Shown here piece by piece: positions 18,809 through 33,589 of a DNA stretch of 37,770 nt (positions are counted from its first letter, which is position 1; each line of letters starts with the position of its first letter). The stretch comes from a virus. Location of the stretch: the UHGV virus genome UHGV-1359486; one strand, written 5' to 3'. A program made the position numbers and the translations under genes. Below the pieces are notes generated by a model that saw nothing but the letters and a program-made list of their open reading frames with translations, had not been told where the DNA came from and did not search any database.

Positions 18809-19033
18809 CTATGCGAACAGGTCTAATGCTTCCTGTGCCTCTCTTGCTGCCTTTTGTGCTCTGGCAACAAACTGTGATTCGGTCTGGCATTTGTGGTAAG
18901 CATCTTTGAAGAGCTCAAACTTGAGCGCGTCGTCTTTAACAAACTCGATAGCGGCCTGAGCTGCGGCAGTGTCATTGCTCACCAGTCGCAGTAAGTCCAG
19001 ACGCATCTGATGTTGTGCTGTGATTTCTGTCAT
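18809..19033 (-). CDS. Hypothetical protein (74 aa; start uncertain, track ORF extends to 19117)
   Basis: ORF between lysis cassette and terminase; weak RBS. Confidence 0.35.
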   Translation of the reverse strand: MTEITAQHQMRLDLLRLVSNDTAAAQAAIEFVKDDALKFELFKDAYHKCQTESQFVARAQKAAREAQEALDLFA

Positions 19034-19231
19034 TTTTGCACCTGTAGTTTTTGAGATAAGTGTTCCGTCTCTCCGGTTGTCACGACCATGCCGCCAATGG
19101 TTGCCGTTCCCACACATGCGGATTACACATCCGTGGCTTCGTTGTTTTCGACTATCAGTGTGCGCTCGTCACGTGAGGATATGAGTCATTGCTAACACGC
19201 TATACCGCGACAACGCTGCGCAAAGTGCTGG

Positions 19232-19438
19232 TTATTTGGAGTCGTTTACGTAATGGGCTACCGTTTTACCGGCGCTGTTGATAATTTCGGCTTTATCGCC
19301 AGACTGCAATGTGAGGTCATCGCCGCAGTTATTATGGTCGGTGTAATTCAGCTTATACGCCCACGGTGACCACTGAATACCATAACCGGACTCAATGACT
19401 TCGTTACCTGATGCGGTGATTACTTTGATTGTGAACAT
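19232..19438 (-). CDS. Hypothetical protein (68 aa)
   Basis: ATG preceded by GGAG at 6 nt. Confidence 0.5.
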   Translation of the reverse strand: MFTIKVITASGNEVIESGYGIQWSPWAYKLNYTDHNNCGDDLTLQSGDKAEIINSAGKTVAHYVNDSK

Positions 19439-19582
19439 GATGATGCTCCGTTATTGAATTTTGTTCGCAACCATCATCACGCATCACTACGTTACTTTGG
19501 TCACTTCCGTCTGTTCCGGCATGTCAAGATAGTGATCACCTCCTATCAGAGAAGATCTATCTAACCTTGTCGGGGTTATTCG

Positions 19583-19609
19583 TAAAAAAGCCCCGCTAGT
19601 TAGCGAGGC
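19583..19609 (-). terminator. Candidate rho-independent terminator overlapping the 3' end of Rz
   Basis: Minus-strand 9-bp stem (one G-U pair) followed by UUUUUU. Confidence 0.35.
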
Positions 19610-20048
19610 ACTGAGTCTTTATGTAGTCATGGAGCCCACGAATTTGGGCATCCATTGTTTCAAGCTGCTTGCGGAGATGAAAATAATCCGGTTCAGCGTC
19701 TCTCGCCAGGGTGGCGGGTCTGCCATCATCCATGCTGGAGGTGGTATCGGTTCCGCTTTTGGGGCATTCAGCGCGGACGTACACCCGCTTGTTGCCAGAC
19801 TTAACAGCATCACGCAGGCTATCAATTTCAGTTTTGGCATTGGTTAACTCCTGCGTGTACATAGTGTCGAGTTCGTGAAGTGACTGAATGCGGGATTTGT
19901 AGCCTTTGTTGATGGCGACCTGCTCTGCAAACTGAGAGGAAAGCAGCTGATAGTTATCTTTCAAGCCACCATACAGATGCAGGAGAAGCAGCAGACTGAC
20001 AGCCAGTATTCCGCAAATGCCTAGCCATATCTTTGTTGCGGTGCTCAT
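19596..20048 (-). CDS. i-spanin (Rz-like)
   Basis: 150 aa, N-terminal TM helix then coiled-coil region; directly after endolysin. Confidence 0.8.
   Translation of the reverse strand: MSTATKIWLGICGILAVSLLLLLHLYGGLKDNYQLLSSQFAEQVAINKGYKSRIQSLHELDTMYTQELTNAKTEIDSLRDAVKSGNKRVYVRAECPKSGTDTTSSMDDGRPATLARDAEPDYFHLRKQLETMDAQIRGLHDYIKTQCLAN
19619..19840 (-). CDS. o-spanin (Rz1-like lipoprotein) embedded in the Rz gene in another frame
   Basis: Signal peptide with lipobox-like ATSGC, Pro-rich mature part; fully nested within Rz. Confidence 0.65.
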   Translation of the reverse strand: MPKLKLIACVMLLSLATSGCTSALNAPKAEPIPPPAWMMADPPPWRETLNRIIFISASSLKQWMPKFVGSMTT

Positions 20049-20049
20049 A

Positions 20050-20382
20050 TCACTTAACGCCGTTGTGTTCTAACGAGTAGTGATTGCCGTCATTGAACCT
20101 ACCGCCCCACGTACCCCCGATGGACTCCCAATATTCACCGAGTGGTTTGTGGTCACTTGATGCCGTCAGATATTTGCCATCTTTGAACAGGTTGAAATCA
20201 ACCGCCAGCCGCTGGGTATGCAGGCTGTTTTTAATTCCAGCGCCGGATTTGGCATTTAGTGCAGCCTGCTCCGGTGTTCGGTACGCCTCTGAGAACGTCA
20301 GATCATAGCCGTTGTCGTACGCGAAGATAATTAAGTCCGCAATCATGCGGGTAAACTTGCGTTGCTTTTCACCTAATGTCAT
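20050..20382 (-). CDS. Endolysin, peptidase M15-type (L-alanyl-D-glutamate/D-Ala-D-Ala peptidase family)
   Basis: 110 aa; SLHTQRLAVD (H-x6-D) and DGNHYSLEH zinc-ligand pattern; ATGA overlap with holin. Confidence 0.7.
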   Translation of the reverse strand: MTLGEKQRKFTRMIADLIIFAYDNGYDLTFSEAYRTPEQAALNAKSGAGIKNSLHTQRLAVDFNLFKDGKYLTASSDHKPLGEYWESIGGTWGGRFNDGNHYSLEHNGVK

Positions 20383-20687
20383 TTTTTACCGCCTGAGAAT
20401 TTTGACCAAAAGAAGTCCAGTGCAAAAGAACCCATAGCGCCACACATACCGGCAGCAAATACCGTGTAATAAAACGAAGCGTTGAGTTCCACAGAAAGAA
20501 GCCCACCCATCAGGCCGGAGAACCCGGAAACCATCATCTGCATGATTGCCCCCAGCCAGCTCCAGCGGTAGCCGTTGCGTTTGTTGTCAATAATGTACCG
20601 GGCTAAGCCACCGTAAAGGGATATGGCAAATATGACCCCCCATGCTGTACCGGTGACTTTCAGGTCTTTGTCATCCATCTTTGCCAT
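20379..20687 (-). CDS. Holin, three TM helices, dual-start motif MAKM
   Basis: 102 aa; three hydrophobic segments, charged C-terminus; strong RBS. Confidence 0.75.
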   Translation of the reverse strand: MAKMDDKDLKVTGTAWGVIFAISLYGGLARYIIDNKRNGYRWSWLGAIMQMMVSGFSGLMGGLLSVELNASFYYTVFAAGMCGAMGSFALDFFWSKFSGGKK

Positions 20688-20873
20688 ACCGCCCCCTTCC
20701 GGAGGATTTAGTTAATAGGGTGCCGCGCACAGTATCTCTGCGCTGATTACGTTTGTTTGTTCAGGATTCTGTGGCGGCGTGTTTGTTTATTAGTTGGATT
20801 GGATGCTGCATCGATGAATGAGTTATATTCAGCAATGCCGATTAATATCACCACCCACATAAAGCAGGTAAAA

Positions 20874-21332
20874 ATGACTGAAAATAAAGAAAGAGCGACT
20901 AAATATTATATCGAGATAGTTAAGCCAACTATCGATGAGTTTATGAATGACAAATGCAGTATTAGAAAAGGAATGCTGGCATCAATCACCATGAATCACA
21001 TAATTGATTACCTATATGACGACAGTTCAAAAAGCGATGGTTTCAGATTTTCGTCCTCTGAATGCGACGCTCTGAACACCATTAAAGATGTCTGCAATGC
21101 ATCTAAACACTGTGAGTTAACAAGAGGAAACCCATCAATAAAATCATCAGACCAAATAACACAAGATGATGTTCCAGGATTATTTTCCGCTCCGTTTGGA
21201 ACTGGTGGATTTCTTGAAGCAAGTTATGTTTTCGTTAAACTTAACGATGAAATTAATGGCGATAAATTCAAATGCTTGCCGAATATAATAAAAGAGGCCG
21301 AAGATTACTGGGATAAACGACTTCCGTCATAA
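20874..21332 (+). CDS. Moron: unknown protein antisense to the late operon (152 aa from ATG 20874; alternatives ATG 20814, TTG 20757)
   Basis: Uninterrupted ORF, AGGT 5 nt upstream of ATG, markedly AT-rich relative to flanks; no recognisable motif. Confidence 0.55.
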   Translation: MTENKERATKYYIEIVKPTIDEFMNDKCSIRKGMLASITMNHIIDYLYDDSSKSDGFRFSSSECDALNTIKDVCNASKHCELTRGNPSIKSSDQITQDDVPGLFSAPFGTGGFLEASYVFVKLNDEINGDKFKCLPNIIKEAEDYWDKRLPS

Positions 21333-21340
21333 AATCACAA

Positions 21341-21364
21341 AATAAAAAGCCCTCCGAAGAGGGC
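21341..21364 (-). terminator. tR'-like strong rho-independent terminator (hairpin shared with the end of the plus-strand moron)
   Basis: GCCCTC-CGAA-GAGGGC hairpin; minus strand followed by UUUUUAUUUU; about 165 nt downstream of PR'. Confidence 0.6.
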
Positions 21365-21509
21365 TGTTATGCATGCTTCGACACAAGGCCAGTTTCCCGC
21401 CGGTGTGCGCCGTTTACTTACTTCCTCGCTCTGCATTCTAAAAAGCCCCGCATTTGGCGAGGATTATAATTCAGGTTAAGCGACTTAAGAGTCATGTAGA
21501 TCAACTTAC

Positions 21510-21544
21510 CTGATAAGTATTGTCCATTTGGTCATTACTGTCAA
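21510..21544 (-). promoter_or_regulatory. Late promoter PR' (probable Q-utilisation region)
   Basis: Minus strand TTGACA - 17 nt - AATACT, overlapping the Q stop codon. Confidence 0.5.
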
Positions 21545-22044
21545 TAGCAAAGTTCAGTAATTTTGCGTACTTTACCCACACGTTTGCGACTGTTCATTAC
21601 ATTTCGCAGAGGTTCGTATAGCAACCACTGAGCCGCTTTGAGTTTTTCGTCAACCTCACGGCGACATGTCCGCATAGATGGAACCTTTATTTTCCCTCCT
21701 GAGCGCGTGTTCATTTTGCGTGGTTTTGCAACGCCGTGATAGTAAGATGCAATCGACAGCTTGGATGAGCCGTGAGCATAGTAACTGAGCAGTATTCCGT
21801 AAGCCTGTGTGTCAGTGGCGATAACTGAATCTACGACCTGAGAAATCAACATTCCGTCATCGTCATTGCACATTGGTCTTGTTGGGTTTTTATCCGGCTC
21901 TACAGTCTGCATGAACTTATAAATCATGTTGATCATGCGAATATCAATCCGGCCTGAATATACCCACGCACCCCACAGCTCAAGCCACTGGTTAAGCCAG
22001 TCATACTGCTCTTTGGTGAGTTCCTTTTCTCCGATATAGCTCAT
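21541..22044 (-). CDS. Late-gene antiterminator Q (P22 gp23-type)
   Basis: 167 aa; WGAW and CNDDDGMLI motifs recalled from P22-type Q; directly upstream of PR'. Confidence 0.7.
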   Translation of the reverse strand: MSYIGEKELTKEQYDWLNQWLELWGAWVYSGRIDIRMINMIYKFMQTVEPDKNPTRPMCNDDDGMLISQVVDSVIATDTQAYGILLSYYAHGSSKLSIASYYHGVAKPRKMNTRSGGKIKVPSMRTCRREVDEKLKAAQWLLYEPLRNVMNSRKRVGKVRKITELCY

Positions 22045-22244
22045 CTTACCTCCGGCAAAACAGTGTGTTTGTGGCAGTCGTACCTGGTGCTGAACGCCTT
22101 CCTCAGTAGCAACTCCCTGCTTTCGCCGACTTCCTGTCGAACCTTGAGATATCCGTCTCTTTTCTGTGTGACTACGTGGTGATGCTTTGTTTCACGCCTG
22201 AGCCACCTGGCTTCTTCGATTGCTGCCGCTATGTCTGTGAACAT
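22041..22244 (-). CDS. nin-region small protein (67 aa)
   Basis: ATGA-coupled to Q; overlaps NinG end. Confidence 0.5.
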   Translation of the reverse strand: MFTDIAAAIEEARWLRRETKHHHVVTQKRDGYLKVRQEVGESRELLLRKAFSTRYDCHKHTVLPEVR

Positions 22245-22828
22245 GATTTCAGCTCCTTCAGTTTCCGCCGGTACTCATCCCGGATCCGTTCGTAGTCCTC
22301 TCGTTTCCATTTCGGCAACTCATGCACACCCATCAGGCGGTCGAAGCGTTCCTGGCCGATTTTTTCAATCAGTGCCGGCCGGTAGTTTTCGATGTTTCCG
22401 GAGAGATGGTTATTACACGCGGAACATTGTTTATGTACGTTATCTTCATCAAATCGCAGTTCAGGCATTGCCTTTGTGGTTCGATAGTGCCCGGCGTGAT
22501 ACTGCCCTGCGTGGTGACGGCCGCAGCTGATGCACGGAAGGTCTTTATCCCGTTCACGGATGTATGCGTTGAATGCGGTCTGTGCTTGTTTTGCGAAATA
22601 TGAGAGGGGTTTTACTGCTAACTTGCGGATTTTGAGTTTGTCTTTTTCTTCACGTTTTTTCTGCTGCTGCTCCTTTTTTAGTTTGGCCTCGGCCTTTTCC
22701 CTTTCCCTGCTTCGTCGCTTTATTGCCAACTCAGCACCATGCTCCGGACAGCACCACCATTCGTTACTGAATTTCGGGTGAAACCATGCCCGGCATATCA
22801 GGCACTTTCGCCGAGATTGTTTTGCCAC
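22229..22828 (-). CDS. ninG: NinG/Rap recombination-associated nuclease
   Basis: 199 aa, GTG start; WFHP, CxxC pairs, DLPCISCG, AGHYRT, HKQCxxCN as in lambda NinG. Confidence 0.85.
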   Translation of the reverse strand: MAKQSRRKCLICRAWFHPKFSNEWWCCPEHGAELAIKRRSREREKAEAKLKKEQQQKKREEKDKLKIRKLAVKPLSYFAKQAQTAFNAYIRERDKDLPCISCGRHHAGQYHAGHYRTTKAMPELRFDEDNVHKQCSACNNHLSGNIENYRPALIEKIGQERFDRLMGVHELPKWKREDYERIRDEYRRKLKELKSCSQT

Positions 22829-22900
22829 ATTTCACCTCACGATAAACTGATGCCGATAGCCAGAACGAACAACACCCAGCACAATACGAACGGGATATAT

Positions 22901-23074
22901 TTACGCATCACCCTCTCCTTTGATTTTCTCAACCACTTCCAGATGCGGACATTCGCTGGCGCATTCTTCGCACACGCTGACCTCGTCCGGCTTCATGATT
23001 TCGTCACACATCGGGCACCTTGGGCGGAATAATTTATGTATTACGTCATTCCACTGCATCATTCTTTCACCCAT
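22901..23074 (-). CDS. Small zinc-ribbon protein (57 aa from ATG)
   Basis: CPMC...CEEC motif pairs. Confidence 0.4.
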   Translation of the reverse strand: MGERMMQWNDVIHKLFRPRCPMCDEIMKPDEVSVCEECASECPHLEVVEKIKGEGDA

Positions 23075-32787: not shown

Positions 32788-33589
32788 CCCACCAATCGCA
32801 CAGGCGGACCTGCAAAAAGCACAAGGGACCGCGGTTAAAGAAAAAACAAAAGACCAGCAGCTAATCCAGTTCATAAACCAGCCAGGCATGAAAGCTCAAC
32901 TAGCAGCCGCCCTGCCGAGGCATATAACACCGGACCGCATGATCAGGATTGTCACCACCGAGATACGGAAAACTCCATCACTGGCAACCTGTGACATGCA
33001 AAGCTTTATCGGCGCTGTTGTTCAGTGCTCGCAACTTGGCCTTGAGCCAGGTAACGCATTGGGCCACGCCTACCTCCTTCCGTTCGGCAATGGTAAAGCG
33101 GCATCAGGGCAATCAAATATTCAGTTAATTATCGGATATCGCGGCATGATCGACCTCGCCCGCCGATCCGGTCAAATTATCAGTATATCGGCCCGCACTG
33201 TGCGCGAAGGTGACAGTTTTCATTTTGAATATGGCTTAAACGAGGACCTTACACACGTACCCGGCGAAAATGACTCGGGCCCAATCACCCACGTTTATGC
33301 AGTGGCCCGCCTGAAAGAAGGTGGTGTTCAGTTTGAGGTTATGTCTTTCTCTCAGATTGAGAAGGTCCGCGATTCAAGCAAGGCCGGTAAAAATGGTCCA
33401 TGGGTATCTCACTGGGAAGAAATGGCGAAAAAGACCGTCATCCGCCGCCTGTTCAAATATCTGCCGGTATCTATCGAGATGCAGAGGGCCGTCATTCTGG
33501 ATGAAAAAGCAGAGGCCAACGTGGACCAGGAGCATGCATCTATTTTTGAAGGTGAGTACGAAACTGTATCGCCGGAATCCGCGGGGTAA
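32780..33589 (+). CDS. recT: RecT-family single-strand annealing protein
   Basis: 269 aa; LLPFG, IGYRGMIDLARRSG motifs; coupled downstream of the nuclease. Confidence 0.85.
   Translation: MSNPPIAQADLQKAQGTAVKEKTKDQQLIQFINQPGMKAQLAAALPRHITPDRMIRIVTTEIRKTPSLATCDMQSFIGAVVQCSQLGLEPGNALGHAYLLPFGNGKAASGQSNIQLIIGYRGMIDLARRSGQIISISARTVREGDSFHFEYGLNEDLTHVPGENDSGPITHVYAVARLKEGGVQFEVMSFSQIEKVRDSSKAGKNGPWVSHWEEMAKKTVIRRLFKYLPVSIEMQRAVILDEKAEANVDQEHASIFEGEYETVSPESAG

What the first reader, a model, noticed from the sequence alone, without database searches (positions are those of the whole stretch)
21341..21544. Late control region: PR' overlapping the Q stop, leader, then a strong tR'
TTGACA-17 nt-AATACT on the minus strand overlaps the Q stop codon. 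The transcript would pass a weak hairpin/U-run (about 21439-21462) and then a strong terminator at 21341-21364, giving a leader of about 165 nt like lambda 6S RNA. The strong hairpin is shared with the 3' end of the convergent moron.
Basis: partly seen in the sequence, partly recalled or inferred. Interest (0 to 1): 0.35.

Follow-up and report, generated by a model that had tools for sequence, protein, structure and literature searches.

The report
Phage 21-type late-gene switch, two terminators
This is the on/off switch for the late (lysis and particle) genes of a Morganella-type prophage: an ordinary phage 21-type switch (Q antiterminator, promoter, pause site, terminator) that recombination has joined to the tail of a lambda-type leader, so it has two terminators in a row.

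Summary
The minus strand carries TTGACA-17-AATACT overlapping the Q stop codon, a hairpin with a U-run at 21462-21440 (T1), and a stronger one at 21365-21339 (T2).

The Q protein belongs to the phage 21 family (PF06530; E=1e-66 to the solved 21Q), not the lambda family. The promoter has every published cis element of phage 21 PR' in register:
- two 8-bp direct-repeat Q-binding subsites in the spacer, with C at -21 and -13;
- a -10-like pause element, TAAGTT, at +2..+7.

This composite motif occurs once in the window and never in 100 shuffles. It is present in 82 of 84 sequences compared (the window plus 83 related loci).

T1 is not incidental. It is the family's conserved terminator: the first terminator ends at +51..+75 in 54 of 74 distinct leaders, with compensatory changes. 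A private G->T substitution weakens it here (-8.3 against -13.7 kcal/mol).

T2 lies in a 96-nt block that is 98% identical to the distal leader of sibling phages carrying a lambda-type Q and PR'. It occupies the position of lambda tR'. The leader is therefore a recombinant chimera, which explains the tandem terminators.

T2 does not belong to the convergent moron.

Verdict: a new member of a known kind, of modest interest.

The parts
21541..22044 (-). Q antiterminator gene, 167 aa, phage 21 (Q21) family
   Evidence: Pfam PF06530, E=1.2e-22. phmmer against PDB 6P18/6JNX (21Q), E=1e-66, residues 4-162. PF06530 is the Q21 family according to PMC9388147.
21539..21544 (-). PR' -35 element TTGACA; overlaps the Q stop codon TGA (21543-21541)
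   Evidence: TTGAC is invariant in 53 of 53 distinct promoters when anchored independently of the pause element.
21528..21535 (-). Upstream Q-binding subsite (QBEu): 8-bp unit ATGACCAA, core TGACCA, C at -21 = 21530
   Evidence: In register with the published phage 21 QBE: TGAGCA twice, 8 bp apart, C at -21 and -13 (PMC6606751). C-21 is invariant. Subsite bases covary with Q recognition residues.
21520..21527 (-). Downstream Q-binding subsite (QBEd): 8-bp unit ATGGACAA, core TGGACA, C at -13 = 21522; overlaps the -10 element
21516..21521 (-). PR' -10 element AATACT
   Evidence: A at -11 and T at -7 are invariant across 53 distinct promoters.
21509..21509 (-). Predicted transcription start (+1, G), inferred by register with phage 21 PR'
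   Evidence: Inference. Loci encoding a Q 100% identical to 21Q fit the published numbering: C at -21 and -13, and RNA halting at +20 without CTP so that +21 is C. The same register is applied here.
21503..21508 (-). -10-like sigma-dependent pause element (SDPE) TAAGTT at +2..+7
   Evidence: T+2 (51/53), A+3 (53/53), A+4 (50/53), G+5 (51/53) and T+7 (53/53) are invariant or nearly so in distinct promoters anchored without using this motif. It occupies the same position as TAAGCT in authentic Q21 loci.
21483..21494 (-). Conserved box TGACTCTTAAGT at +16..+27. It contains the nearly invariant T+16 G+17 (a pause-site-like Y-G step). It is identical to phage 21 at the same coordinates.
   Evidence: A pause-site role is inferred from the T-N-Y-G consensus for scrunched sigma-dependent pauses (PMC9191641).
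21440..21462 (-). T1, the family-conserved terminator of the Q21-type cassette: stem CCTCGC/GCGGGG, loop CAAAT, then C + UUUUU (+48..+70)
   Evidence: 9 consensus pairs, 2 with compensatory changes; first terminator ends at +51..+75 in 54 of 74 distinct leaders; -8.3 kcal/mol here against -13.7 in the closest relatives.
21344..21439 (-). 96-nt block shared with the distal leader of lambda-type Q cassettes in sibling phages (remnant of a 6S-like leader)
   Evidence: 97.9% identity to L087, L089, L090 and L099, which lie behind a PF03589 Q gene and a lambda-type PR'. The L087 leader aligns with lambda 44586-44721 and with the tR' tail 44770-44801.
21339..21365 (-). T2, strong terminator in the position of lambda tR': stem AGCCCTC/GAGGGCT, UUCG loop, then UUUUAUUUU (+145..+171)
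   Evidence: (-12.4 kcal/mol).
20787..21343 (+). Convergent moron cassette. The ORF 20874-21332 encodes 152 aa of unknown function. It lies antisense to the late transcript.
   Evidence: Cassette boundaries come from comparison with relatives. phrog_33893, function unknown. Homologues are annotated only as hypothetical proteins, in Morganella and Moellerella.
19596..20687 (-). First late genes downstream: holin (20379-20687), endolysin (20050-20382), Rz (19596-20048) with embedded Rz1 (19619-19840)
   Evidence: Pfam PF16083, PF13539 and PF03245; ORF list.

Best explanation
This is the late-gene switch of a P22-like prophage of the Morganellaceae, built on the phage 21 plan.

Proposed mechanism:
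1. Host sigma-70 RNA polymerase starts at PR' (-35 at 21544-21539, -10 at 21521-21516, +1 at about 21509).
2. Sigma region 2 re-binds the -10-like TAAGTT at +2..+7, and the polymerase pauses at about +16 to +18.
3. Two Q protomers bind the direct-repeat subsites TGACCA and TGGACA in the promoter spacer. They load onto the paused polymerase and form the nozzle on the RNA exit channel, as solved for 21Q.
4. The modified polymerase ignores T1 and T2. It crosses the moron in antisense and transcribes holin, endolysin, Rz/Rz1 and the packaging and head genes.
5. Without Q, transcripts end at T1 (RNA of about 70 nt) or, if they leak through, at T2 (about 170 nt).

Origin of the tandem terminators: recombination. 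A self-contained Q21-type cassette (Q, PR', QBE, SDPE, T1; window 22039-21440) was joined to the last 96 nt of a lambda-type 6S-like leader that still carries its own tR' (T2).

Basis of each step:
- Shown by sequence comparison: family membership, the register of all cis elements, conservation and covariation, and the chimera joints.
- Inferred: the start site, the pause position, the share of termination at T1 against T2, and that Q acts here.
For: Q family: PF06530 and E=1e-66 to the solved 21Q.

Published 21 PR' anatomy: QBE is TGAGCA twice between -35 and -10, with C at -21 and -13, plus a -10-like element in the initial transcribed region.

Match to that anatomy:
- The window matches in register. 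From -35 to +27, 43 of 62 bases are identical to loci encoding a Q 100% identical to 21Q, without gaps.
- The composite motif is unique in the window and absent from shuffles.
- It is present in 82 of 84 sequences compared.
- Invariant positions fall exactly on -35, C-21, C-13, A-11, T-7, the SDPE and T+16 G+17.

Q-QBE covariation: Q residues that contact bases in the 21Q structure (95, 124, 128) change together with the subsite bases. This is seen in two protein backbones that are only about 60% identical to each other.

T1: a conserved hairpin with compensatory changes at a fixed distance from the start.

T2 block: 97.9% identical to the leaders behind lambda-type Q cassettes, which in turn align with lambda PR'-6S-tR'.

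Late genes follow on the same strand.
Against: - There are no transcript data. The start site, the pause and termination at either site are all inferred.
- The window carries private substitutions in the leader: C->A at +9 (51 of 53 relatives have C) and G->T at 21463 in the T1 stem. The element could therefore be drifting in a defective prophage.
- The two QBE subsites differ from each other and from TGAGCA. Binding by this Q is inferred from covariation, not measured.
- The promoter and terminator hits taken alone are no more frequent than in shuffled sequence.
Confidence: 0.85

Rival explanations
1. T1 is only a weak pause or leaky hairpin, essentially all Q-less transcripts end at T2, and the product is one leader RNA of about 170 nt analogous to lambda 6S.
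For: In this sequence T1 is weakened: 6 pairs, -8.3 kcal/mol, and a C between the stem and only 5 U. T2 is stronger (-12.4 kcal/mol, UUCG loop, UUUUAUUUU). T2 is in the position of lambda tR'.
Against: T1 sits at the conserved terminator position of the family: the first terminator ends at +51..+75 in 54 of 74 distinct leaders. Its stem shows compensatory changes. Relatives L008, L012 and L022 have T1 as their only terminator before the late genes. A stem of -8 kcal/mol followed by U5 is still a plausible partial terminator.
Confidence: 0.25
2. The strong hairpin T2 is chiefly the moron's own terminator, or a bidirectional terminator brought in with the moron. Its role in late control would be secondary.
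For: T2 lies 16 nt beyond the moron stop codon. Its stem is entirely Watson-Crick, so it folds on both strands.
Against: - The T2 block is present, 98% identical, in relatives that lack the moron: L004-L007, L010, L084 and ten loci with lambda-type Q.
- The same moron sits directly behind T1 in L018, L055 and L086, with no T2.
- On the + strand the hairpin is followed by GTTATGCA, and the scan reports no + strand terminator there.
Confidence: 0.1
3. The region is an inactive relic. The prophage is defective, and PR' and its terminators no longer control anything.
For: The leader carries two private substitutions at otherwise conserved positions: +9, and the T1 stem at 21463.
Against: The Q ORF is intact and full length. 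Every critical base of -35, QBE, -10 and SDPE is retained. The lysis and packaging genes downstream are intact ORFs with family matches. Near-identical cassettes occur in many independent contigs.
Confidence: 0.1

Closest known systems
Phage 21 late control cassette (21Q, PR'21 with direct-repeat QBE, SDPE, tR'; structures 6JNX, 6JNY and 6P18; PMC6606751; bioRxiv 10.1101/651190)
   Same: - The Q protein is in the same family (E=1e-66; about 64% identity in the MAFFT alignment).
- -35 TTGACA lies next to the Q stop codon.
- Two subsites lie 8 bp apart in the spacer, with C at -21 and -13.
- The -10 element overlaps the downstream subsite.
- The -10-like TAAGNT lies at +2..+7.
- The +16..+27 box TGACTCTTAAGT is identical.
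- An intrinsic terminator follows, then the late genes.
- From -35 to +27, 43 of 62 bases are identical without gaps.
   Different: - The subsite cores are TGACCA and TGGACA instead of TGAGCA twice. Q has L95 and R124 in place of H95 and A124.
- In authentic Q21 loci a -20 kcal/mol hairpin from +3 to +41 is followed directly by U7, placing the first terminator at about +48. Here that hairpin has decayed to -3 kcal/mol. A separate terminator T1 sits at +48..+70 and a second, T2, at +145..+171.
- The host is a member of the Morganellaceae, not E. coli.
Phage lambda PR'-6S RNA-tR' (NC_001416, about 44586-44801)
   Same: Both share the functional logic of a constitutive promoter, a pause element, a short terminated leader and Q-dependent read-through. 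The window's distal 96 nt, including T2, are 98% identical to the leaders of sibling phages with a lambda-family Q. Those leaders align with lambda 44586-44721 (71% over 140 nt) and with the tR' tail 44770-44801. T2 therefore occupies the tR' position.
   Different: The window has no lambda-family Q, no lambda-type QBE and no AACGAT pause element. Direct window-to-lambda similarity in the block is below blastn detection, so the link is by transitivity through L087. Only the last third of the leader is lambda-type.
Exchange of Q alleles among lambdoid and Stx phages (for example the q933 and q21 alleles upstream of stx2). This item rests on my own knowledge and was not checked here.
   Same: Alternative, non-homologous Q cassettes occupy the same slot between the nin region and the lysis genes. 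The slot downstream of tR' holds morons and tRNA genes.
   Different: Here one swap joint falls inside the leader, so both the incoming and the resident terminators are kept in tandem.

Membership tests
Q21-type Q-dependent antitermination cassette | Q protein of the Q21 family (PF06530; fold of 21Q) | tested here: met
   PF06530 at 80.5 bits against a cut-off of 26. phmmer E=1.4e-66 to 6P18 and 1.7e-66 to 6JNX, over residues 4-162. 6JNX and 6JNY are 21Q.
Q21-type Q-dependent antitermination cassette | QBE: two directly repeated subsites 8 bp apart between -35 and -10, with C:G pairs at -21 and -13 | tested here: met
   ATGACCAA and ATGGACAA at 21535-21520, with C at 21530 and 21522. Both C positions are invariant in 53 distinct promoters. 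Actual binding by Q cannot be tested with these tools.
Q21-type Q-dependent antitermination cassette | Sigma-70 promoter immediately downstream of the Q gene | tested here: met
   TTGACA-17-AATACT, 10 of 12 matches, overlapping the Q stop. -35, A-11 and T-7 are invariant across relatives.
Q21-type Q-dependent antitermination cassette | -10-like sigma-dependent pause element in the initial transcribed region | tested here: met
   TAAGTT at +2..+7, in the same register as TAAGCT in loci encoding a Q 100% identical to 21Q. Pausing itself cannot be tested here.
Q21-type Q-dependent antitermination cassette | Intrinsic terminator between PR' and the late genes | tested here: met
   T1 and T2. Holin, endolysin and Rz lie downstream on the same strand.
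Q21-type Q-dependent antitermination cassette | Q-dependent read-through of the terminator | not testable with these tools
   Requires in vitro transcription or transcript mapping.
Lambda-type PR'-6S-tR' leader | Lambda-family Q (PF03589) with its QBE and the AACGAT pause element | tested here: not met
   The window Q is PF06530. The lambda-type elements are present in sibling locus L087 but absent from the window.
Lambda-type PR'-6S-tR' leader | Distal leader and terminator homologous to lambda 6S/tR' | tested here: met
   Window 21439-21344 is 97.9% identical to L087 6711-6806. L087 aligns with lambda 44586-44721 and 44770-44801. This holds by transitivity only; there is no direct blastn hit between the window and lambda.

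The most novel reading that the evidence does not exclude
The relatives gathered here suggest a modular recognition code in the Q21 family.
- Residue 124 = R goes with subsite cores TGGACA, TGACCA or TGGCCA.
- G124 with N128 goes with T at subsite position 2 (TTAGCA, TTAGCC).
- R95 goes with C at position 6 (TGAGCC, TTAGCC).

The G124/N128 association recurs in two protein backbones that are only about 60% identical to each other. If real, Q21-family cassettes form mutually orthogonal Q/QBE pairs. Co-resident prophages would then not cross-activate each other's late genes, and the window's Q (L95, R124) would be specific for its own non-identical subsites. The chimera joints also mark the minimal portable unit: Q, PR', QBE, SDPE and T1 in 600 bp.
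Probability: 0.5. Interest if true: 0.45.

Novelty: new member of a known kind. Interest (0 to 1): 0.28.

Why it matters
The region gives a confident, base-level annotation of the late switch in a prophage group (Morganella, Proteus, Providencia) where it has not been described. That covers the promoter, the two Q-binding subsites, the pause element and both terminators.

It shows that the phage 21 plan, known from one E. coli phage and its structures, is rigidly conserved down to about 60% Q identity. It supplies natural variants of the Q-binding site paired with changed recognition residues, which could be tested directly for specificity.

The tandem terminators are a clear example of how swapping non-homologous Q cassettes can leave behind the resident terminator.

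None of this changes the understanding of Q antitermination.

Tried and rejected
- **Rfam.** A scan of 19000-23000 at E<=1 found nothing. No described RNA family covers the leader.
- **Whole-leader fold.** The fold of +1..+175 is not unusual (z = -0.69). There is no case for a structured RNA beyond the two terminators.
- **5' hairpin.** I tested a 5'-terminal hairpin that includes the pause element. In phage 21-like loci it is strong (-20 kcal/mol) and is itself the terminator. In the window it is only -3 kcal/mol, and RNAalifold does not recover it. I rejected it as a feature of this window.
- **TATAAT at 21468-21463.** I considered it as an internal promoter or a second pause element. It exists only in the window, where relatives have TATAAG. 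It has no -35 or TG partner and is a by-product of the G->T substitution.
- **Small ORF 21335-21436 (33 aa).** It has no ribosome-binding site and no family hit, and its C-terminus changes with the downstream joint. I rejected it.
- **Moron function.** The results were Pfam DUF5868 below cut-off, PADLOC none, NCBIfam none and PHROG of unknown function. The AlphaFold model had pLDDT 43, so I ran no fold search. The moron shows no similarity to the antisense ORF in the same slot of L087.
- **Literature.** Guo et al. 1991 on the phage 21 late region could not be read. The published position of 21 tR' and the +18 pause are therefore not verified here.

Full report
**What is in the sequence.** On the minus strand the Q-like ORF (22044-21541, 167 aa) ends with TGA at 21543-21541. 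The consensus scan finds TTGACA (21544-21539), a 17-nt spacer and AATACT (21521-21516), 10 of 12 matches. It also finds two terminator-like sites on the same strand. T1 has stem CCTCGC/GCGGGG at 21462-21446, followed by CTTTTT. T2 has stem AGCCCTC/GAGGGCT with a UUCG loop at 21365-21348, followed by TTTTATTTT. Downstream on the same strand lie the holin, an M15 endolysin, Rz with embedded Rz1, and then the terminase genes. By count alone, promoter-like and terminator-like hits in this 5-kb stretch are no more frequent than in shuffled sequence. The case has to rest on context and conservation.

**Which Q family.** The protein matches Pfam PF06530. It matches the solved Q protein of phage 21 at E=1e-66 over residues 4-162; 6JNX and 6JNY are 21Q. 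According to PMC9388147, PF06530 is the Q21 family, distinct from the lambda family (PF03589) and the 82 family (PF06323). The published anatomy of phage 21 PR' has three parts. The Q-binding element is two direct repeats, described as 8-bp subsites with core TGAGCA. It lies between the -35 and -10 elements, with functionally required C:G pairs at -21 and -13. A -10-like element in the initial transcribed region causes the sigma-dependent pause.

**The window has that anatomy in register.** I fetched 83 related loci. Three come from annotated phages of Proteus, Providencia and 'Salmonella'. Eighty come from IMG/VR, with Q identity from 61 to 99%.
- The pattern TTGAC[A/T]-N17-NANNNT-N5-8-TA[A/T]GNT was found in 82 of 84 sequences compared (the window plus the 83 loci). 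The two exceptions are contigs truncated at the Q stop.
- The spacer always holds two 8-bp direct repeats. The window has ATGACCAA and ATGGACAA. Loci encoding a Q 100% identical to 21Q have TTGAGCAA and ATGAGCAA, which is the published QBE.
- I set the numbering from the published facts: C at -21 and -13, and RNA halting at +20 without CTP, so that +21 is C. The authentic Q21 loci fit this numbering.
- In the window this gives +1 = G 21509, C-21 = 21530, C-13 = 21522, and the -10-like TAAGTT at +2..+7 (21508-21503).
- I then anchored the promoters without using the pause element, on the Q C-terminal coding motif plus the first TTGAC. This gave 53 distinct promoters. The invariant or nearly invariant positions are TTGAC, C-21, A-19 A-18 T-17, C-13, A-11, T-7, T+2 A+3 A+4 G+5, T+7, G+8, T+12 and T+16 G+17. 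The printed labels are one position low, and I have corrected for that here.
- From -35 to +27 the window and phage 21 share 43 of 62 bases without a gap, including an identical +16..+27 box TGACTCTTAAGT.
- The composite motif occurs once in the 37.8-kb window, at 21503-21544 on the minus strand. It never occurs in 100 shuffles, even with two mismatches allowed.
- The Y-G step at +16/+17 resembles the downstream half of the T-N-Y-G consensus for scrunched sigma-dependent pauses (PMC9191641). I therefore expect the pause at about +16 to +18. This is an inference.

**Evidence that the repeats are the Q-binding site.** In the 21Q complex, H95, A124, R127 and R128 contact bases. Across the relatives these residues change together with the subsite sequence.
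- Cores TGGACA, TGACCA and TGGCCA go with R124.
- TTAGCA goes with G124 and N128.
- TGAGCC goes with R95.
- TTAGCC goes with R95, G124 and N128.
- TGAGCA goes with A, I or G at 124 and R128.

The G124/N128 association with T at position 2 appears in two places. One is the Pm34-like group, 89% identical to a TGGACA/R124 group. The other is the L078-like group, 90% identical to a TGAGCC/I124 group. These two backbones are only about 57-63% identical to each other. The window's Q has L95 and R124, as expected for its subsites.

**The first hairpin (T1) is the family's terminator.** In 54 of 74 distinct leaders the first terminator-like hairpin ends at +51..+75, mostly at +64..+72. In six phage 21-like leaders it ends at or before +50. 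Twenty-eight leaders have two or more terminators within +300. RNAalifold on 16 representatives predicts only this hairpin: 9 pairs, two of them with G-C to A-U compensatory changes. One pair is U.G in 15 of 16 sequences. On the + strand that pair becomes a C.A mismatch, so T1 is specific to the late-transcript strand.

In the window a private G->T at 21463 breaks the G-C pair that extends the stem in all close relatives. But T1 is the conserved terminator of the Q21-type cassettes of this phage group, and it should still stop a share of transcripts at about +70.

**The second terminator (T2) and the origin of the tandem.** T2 (-12.4 kcal/mol) lies in a block that the window shares with L004-L007, L010 and Morganella morganii H1r (L084). 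The block is missing from L008, L012 and L022, where the T1 U-run is joined directly to the sequence that follows T2 elsewhere.

An exact-match scan with part of the block found 15 loci. Five are these Q21-type contexts. Ten have a different upstream sequence. In one of the ten, L087, the upstream gene is a 273-aa lambda-family Q (PF03589, E=5e-50). It is followed by TTGACA-17-ATCATT and then AACGAT, the lambda pause element. The L087 leader aligns with lambda 44586-44721 (71% over 140 nt, E=5e-12), and its terminator tail aligns with lambda 44770-44801.

Window 21439-21344 is 97.9% identical to L087 6711-6806. Window 22227-22040, the small ORF before Q, is 97.9% identical to L087 5525-5712. 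Two alternative Q cassettes therefore occupy the same slot. In the window, the Q21-type cassette (22039-21440, about 600 bp, carrying its own T1) replaced the lambda-type Q gene, its PR' and the first two-thirds of its leader. It left the last 96 nt with the lambda-type tR' in place. That explains the tandem terminators. The window shows no direct blastn similarity to lambda, so the link runs through L087.

**The convergent moron.** Relatives without it resume homology at window 20786-20780 and diverge right after the T2 U-run at 21344. The cassette is therefore about 20787-21343. Its ORF most likely starts at ATG 20874, preceded by AGG, and encodes 152 aa. It matches a PHROG of unknown function, and its homologues are annotated only as hypothetical proteins from Morganella and Moellerella. 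The same moron (86% identity) sits directly behind T1 in L018, L055 and Proteus cibi L086. T2 is thus not part of it. On the + strand the T2 hairpin is followed by GTTATGCA, and the scan reports no + strand terminator there. The hairpin is 'shared' only in the sense that it lies 16 nt past the moron stop. Antisense ORFs and a tRNA-Met gene occupy this slot in Pm34, PSTCR7lys and L087. The window has no tRNA there.

**Mechanism and confidence.**
- Shown: family membership, the register of all cis elements, conservation, covariation and the recombination joints.
- Inferred: the start at 21509, the pause at +16..+18, two Q protomers loading from the repeats onto the paused polymerase as in the 21Q structures, partial termination at T1 and back-up termination at T2 without Q, and read-through of both plus about 650 nt of antisense moron with Q.

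I put 0.85 on this reading. The rivals are a single 170-nt leader with T1 irrelevant, T2 as the moron's terminator, and an inactive relic. Each is weighed in its own section.

**Comparison and verdict.** The host range is Morganellaceae, and the head genes are P22-like. The region is a new member of the phage 21-type late control cassette. It passes every membership feature that sequence can test. It differs from phage 21 in three ways: its subsite cores with matching recognition residues, a separate T1 in place of the long +3..+41 terminator hairpin of phage 21, and the retained lambda-type tR'. It is a solid annotation with a clear mosaic history, not a new mechanism. The one thread with wider value is the apparent recognition code between Q21-family proteins and their binding sites.

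Noticed in passing
window 21520-21535 with Q residues 95/124/128 (Q21 numbering); loci L001-L083: Q21-family residues that contact bases in the 21Q structure covary with the QBE subsite sequence. R124 goes with TGGACA/TGACCA. G124 plus N128 goes with T at subsite position 2. R95 goes with C at position 6. The G124/N128 association recurs in two backbones only about 60% identical to each other.
   Followed up: partly
window 21344-21439; L087 6540-6810; lambda 44586-44801: The distal 96 nt of the leader, including T2, are shared at 98% identity with sibling phages that carry a lambda-family Q and a lambda-type PR' with an AACGAT pause element. Ten of the 15 exact-match loci are of that type. The block is the tail of a 6S-like leader.
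   Followed up: yes
window 21463 and 21501: The leader carries two private substitutions. G->T at 21463 weakens the T1 stem from -13.7 to -8.3 kcal/mol and creates a perfect TATAAT at 21468-21463. C->A at +9 (21501) falls where 51 of 53 relatives have C.
   Followed up: partly
window 20787-21343 (ORF 20874-21332, + strand): A 152-aa moron of unknown function lies antisense to the late operon. Its homologues are annotated only as hypothetical proteins, in Morganella and Moellerella, and related copies occur in Proteus. The same cassette sits behind T1 in L018, L055 and L086. The AlphaFold model is unusable (pLDDT 43).
   Followed up: partly
L103-L182 and L066-L083, +3..+48 of the leader: In loci encoding a Q 99-100% identical to 21Q, and in other phage 21-like loci, a -20 kcal/mol hairpin starts at +3. 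It encloses the pause region and the conserved TGACTCTTAAGT box and is followed directly by U7. The first terminator would therefore release an RNA of only about 48 nt. tRNA-like sequences follow in many of these loci.
   Followed up: partly
L003, L017, L044, L046, L052, about +40..+150 of the leader: A subgroup of relatives, including 'Salmonella phage MS2 LVA', has an insertion of about 110 nt between the conserved box and the terminator. This shifts the first terminator to +154..+177. Its content was not examined.
   Followed up: no
window 20688-20786: About 100 nt upstream of the holin start are conserved across relatives, whatever lies between tR' and this point. The stretch includes a GCGCAGAGATACTGTGCGC hairpin.
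   Followed up: no
window 32908-33004: ARAGORN calls a 97-nt tRNA-Gly (anticodon tcc) on the minus strand. That is unusually long for a tRNA, so it may contain an insertion or be a false call.
   Followed up: no
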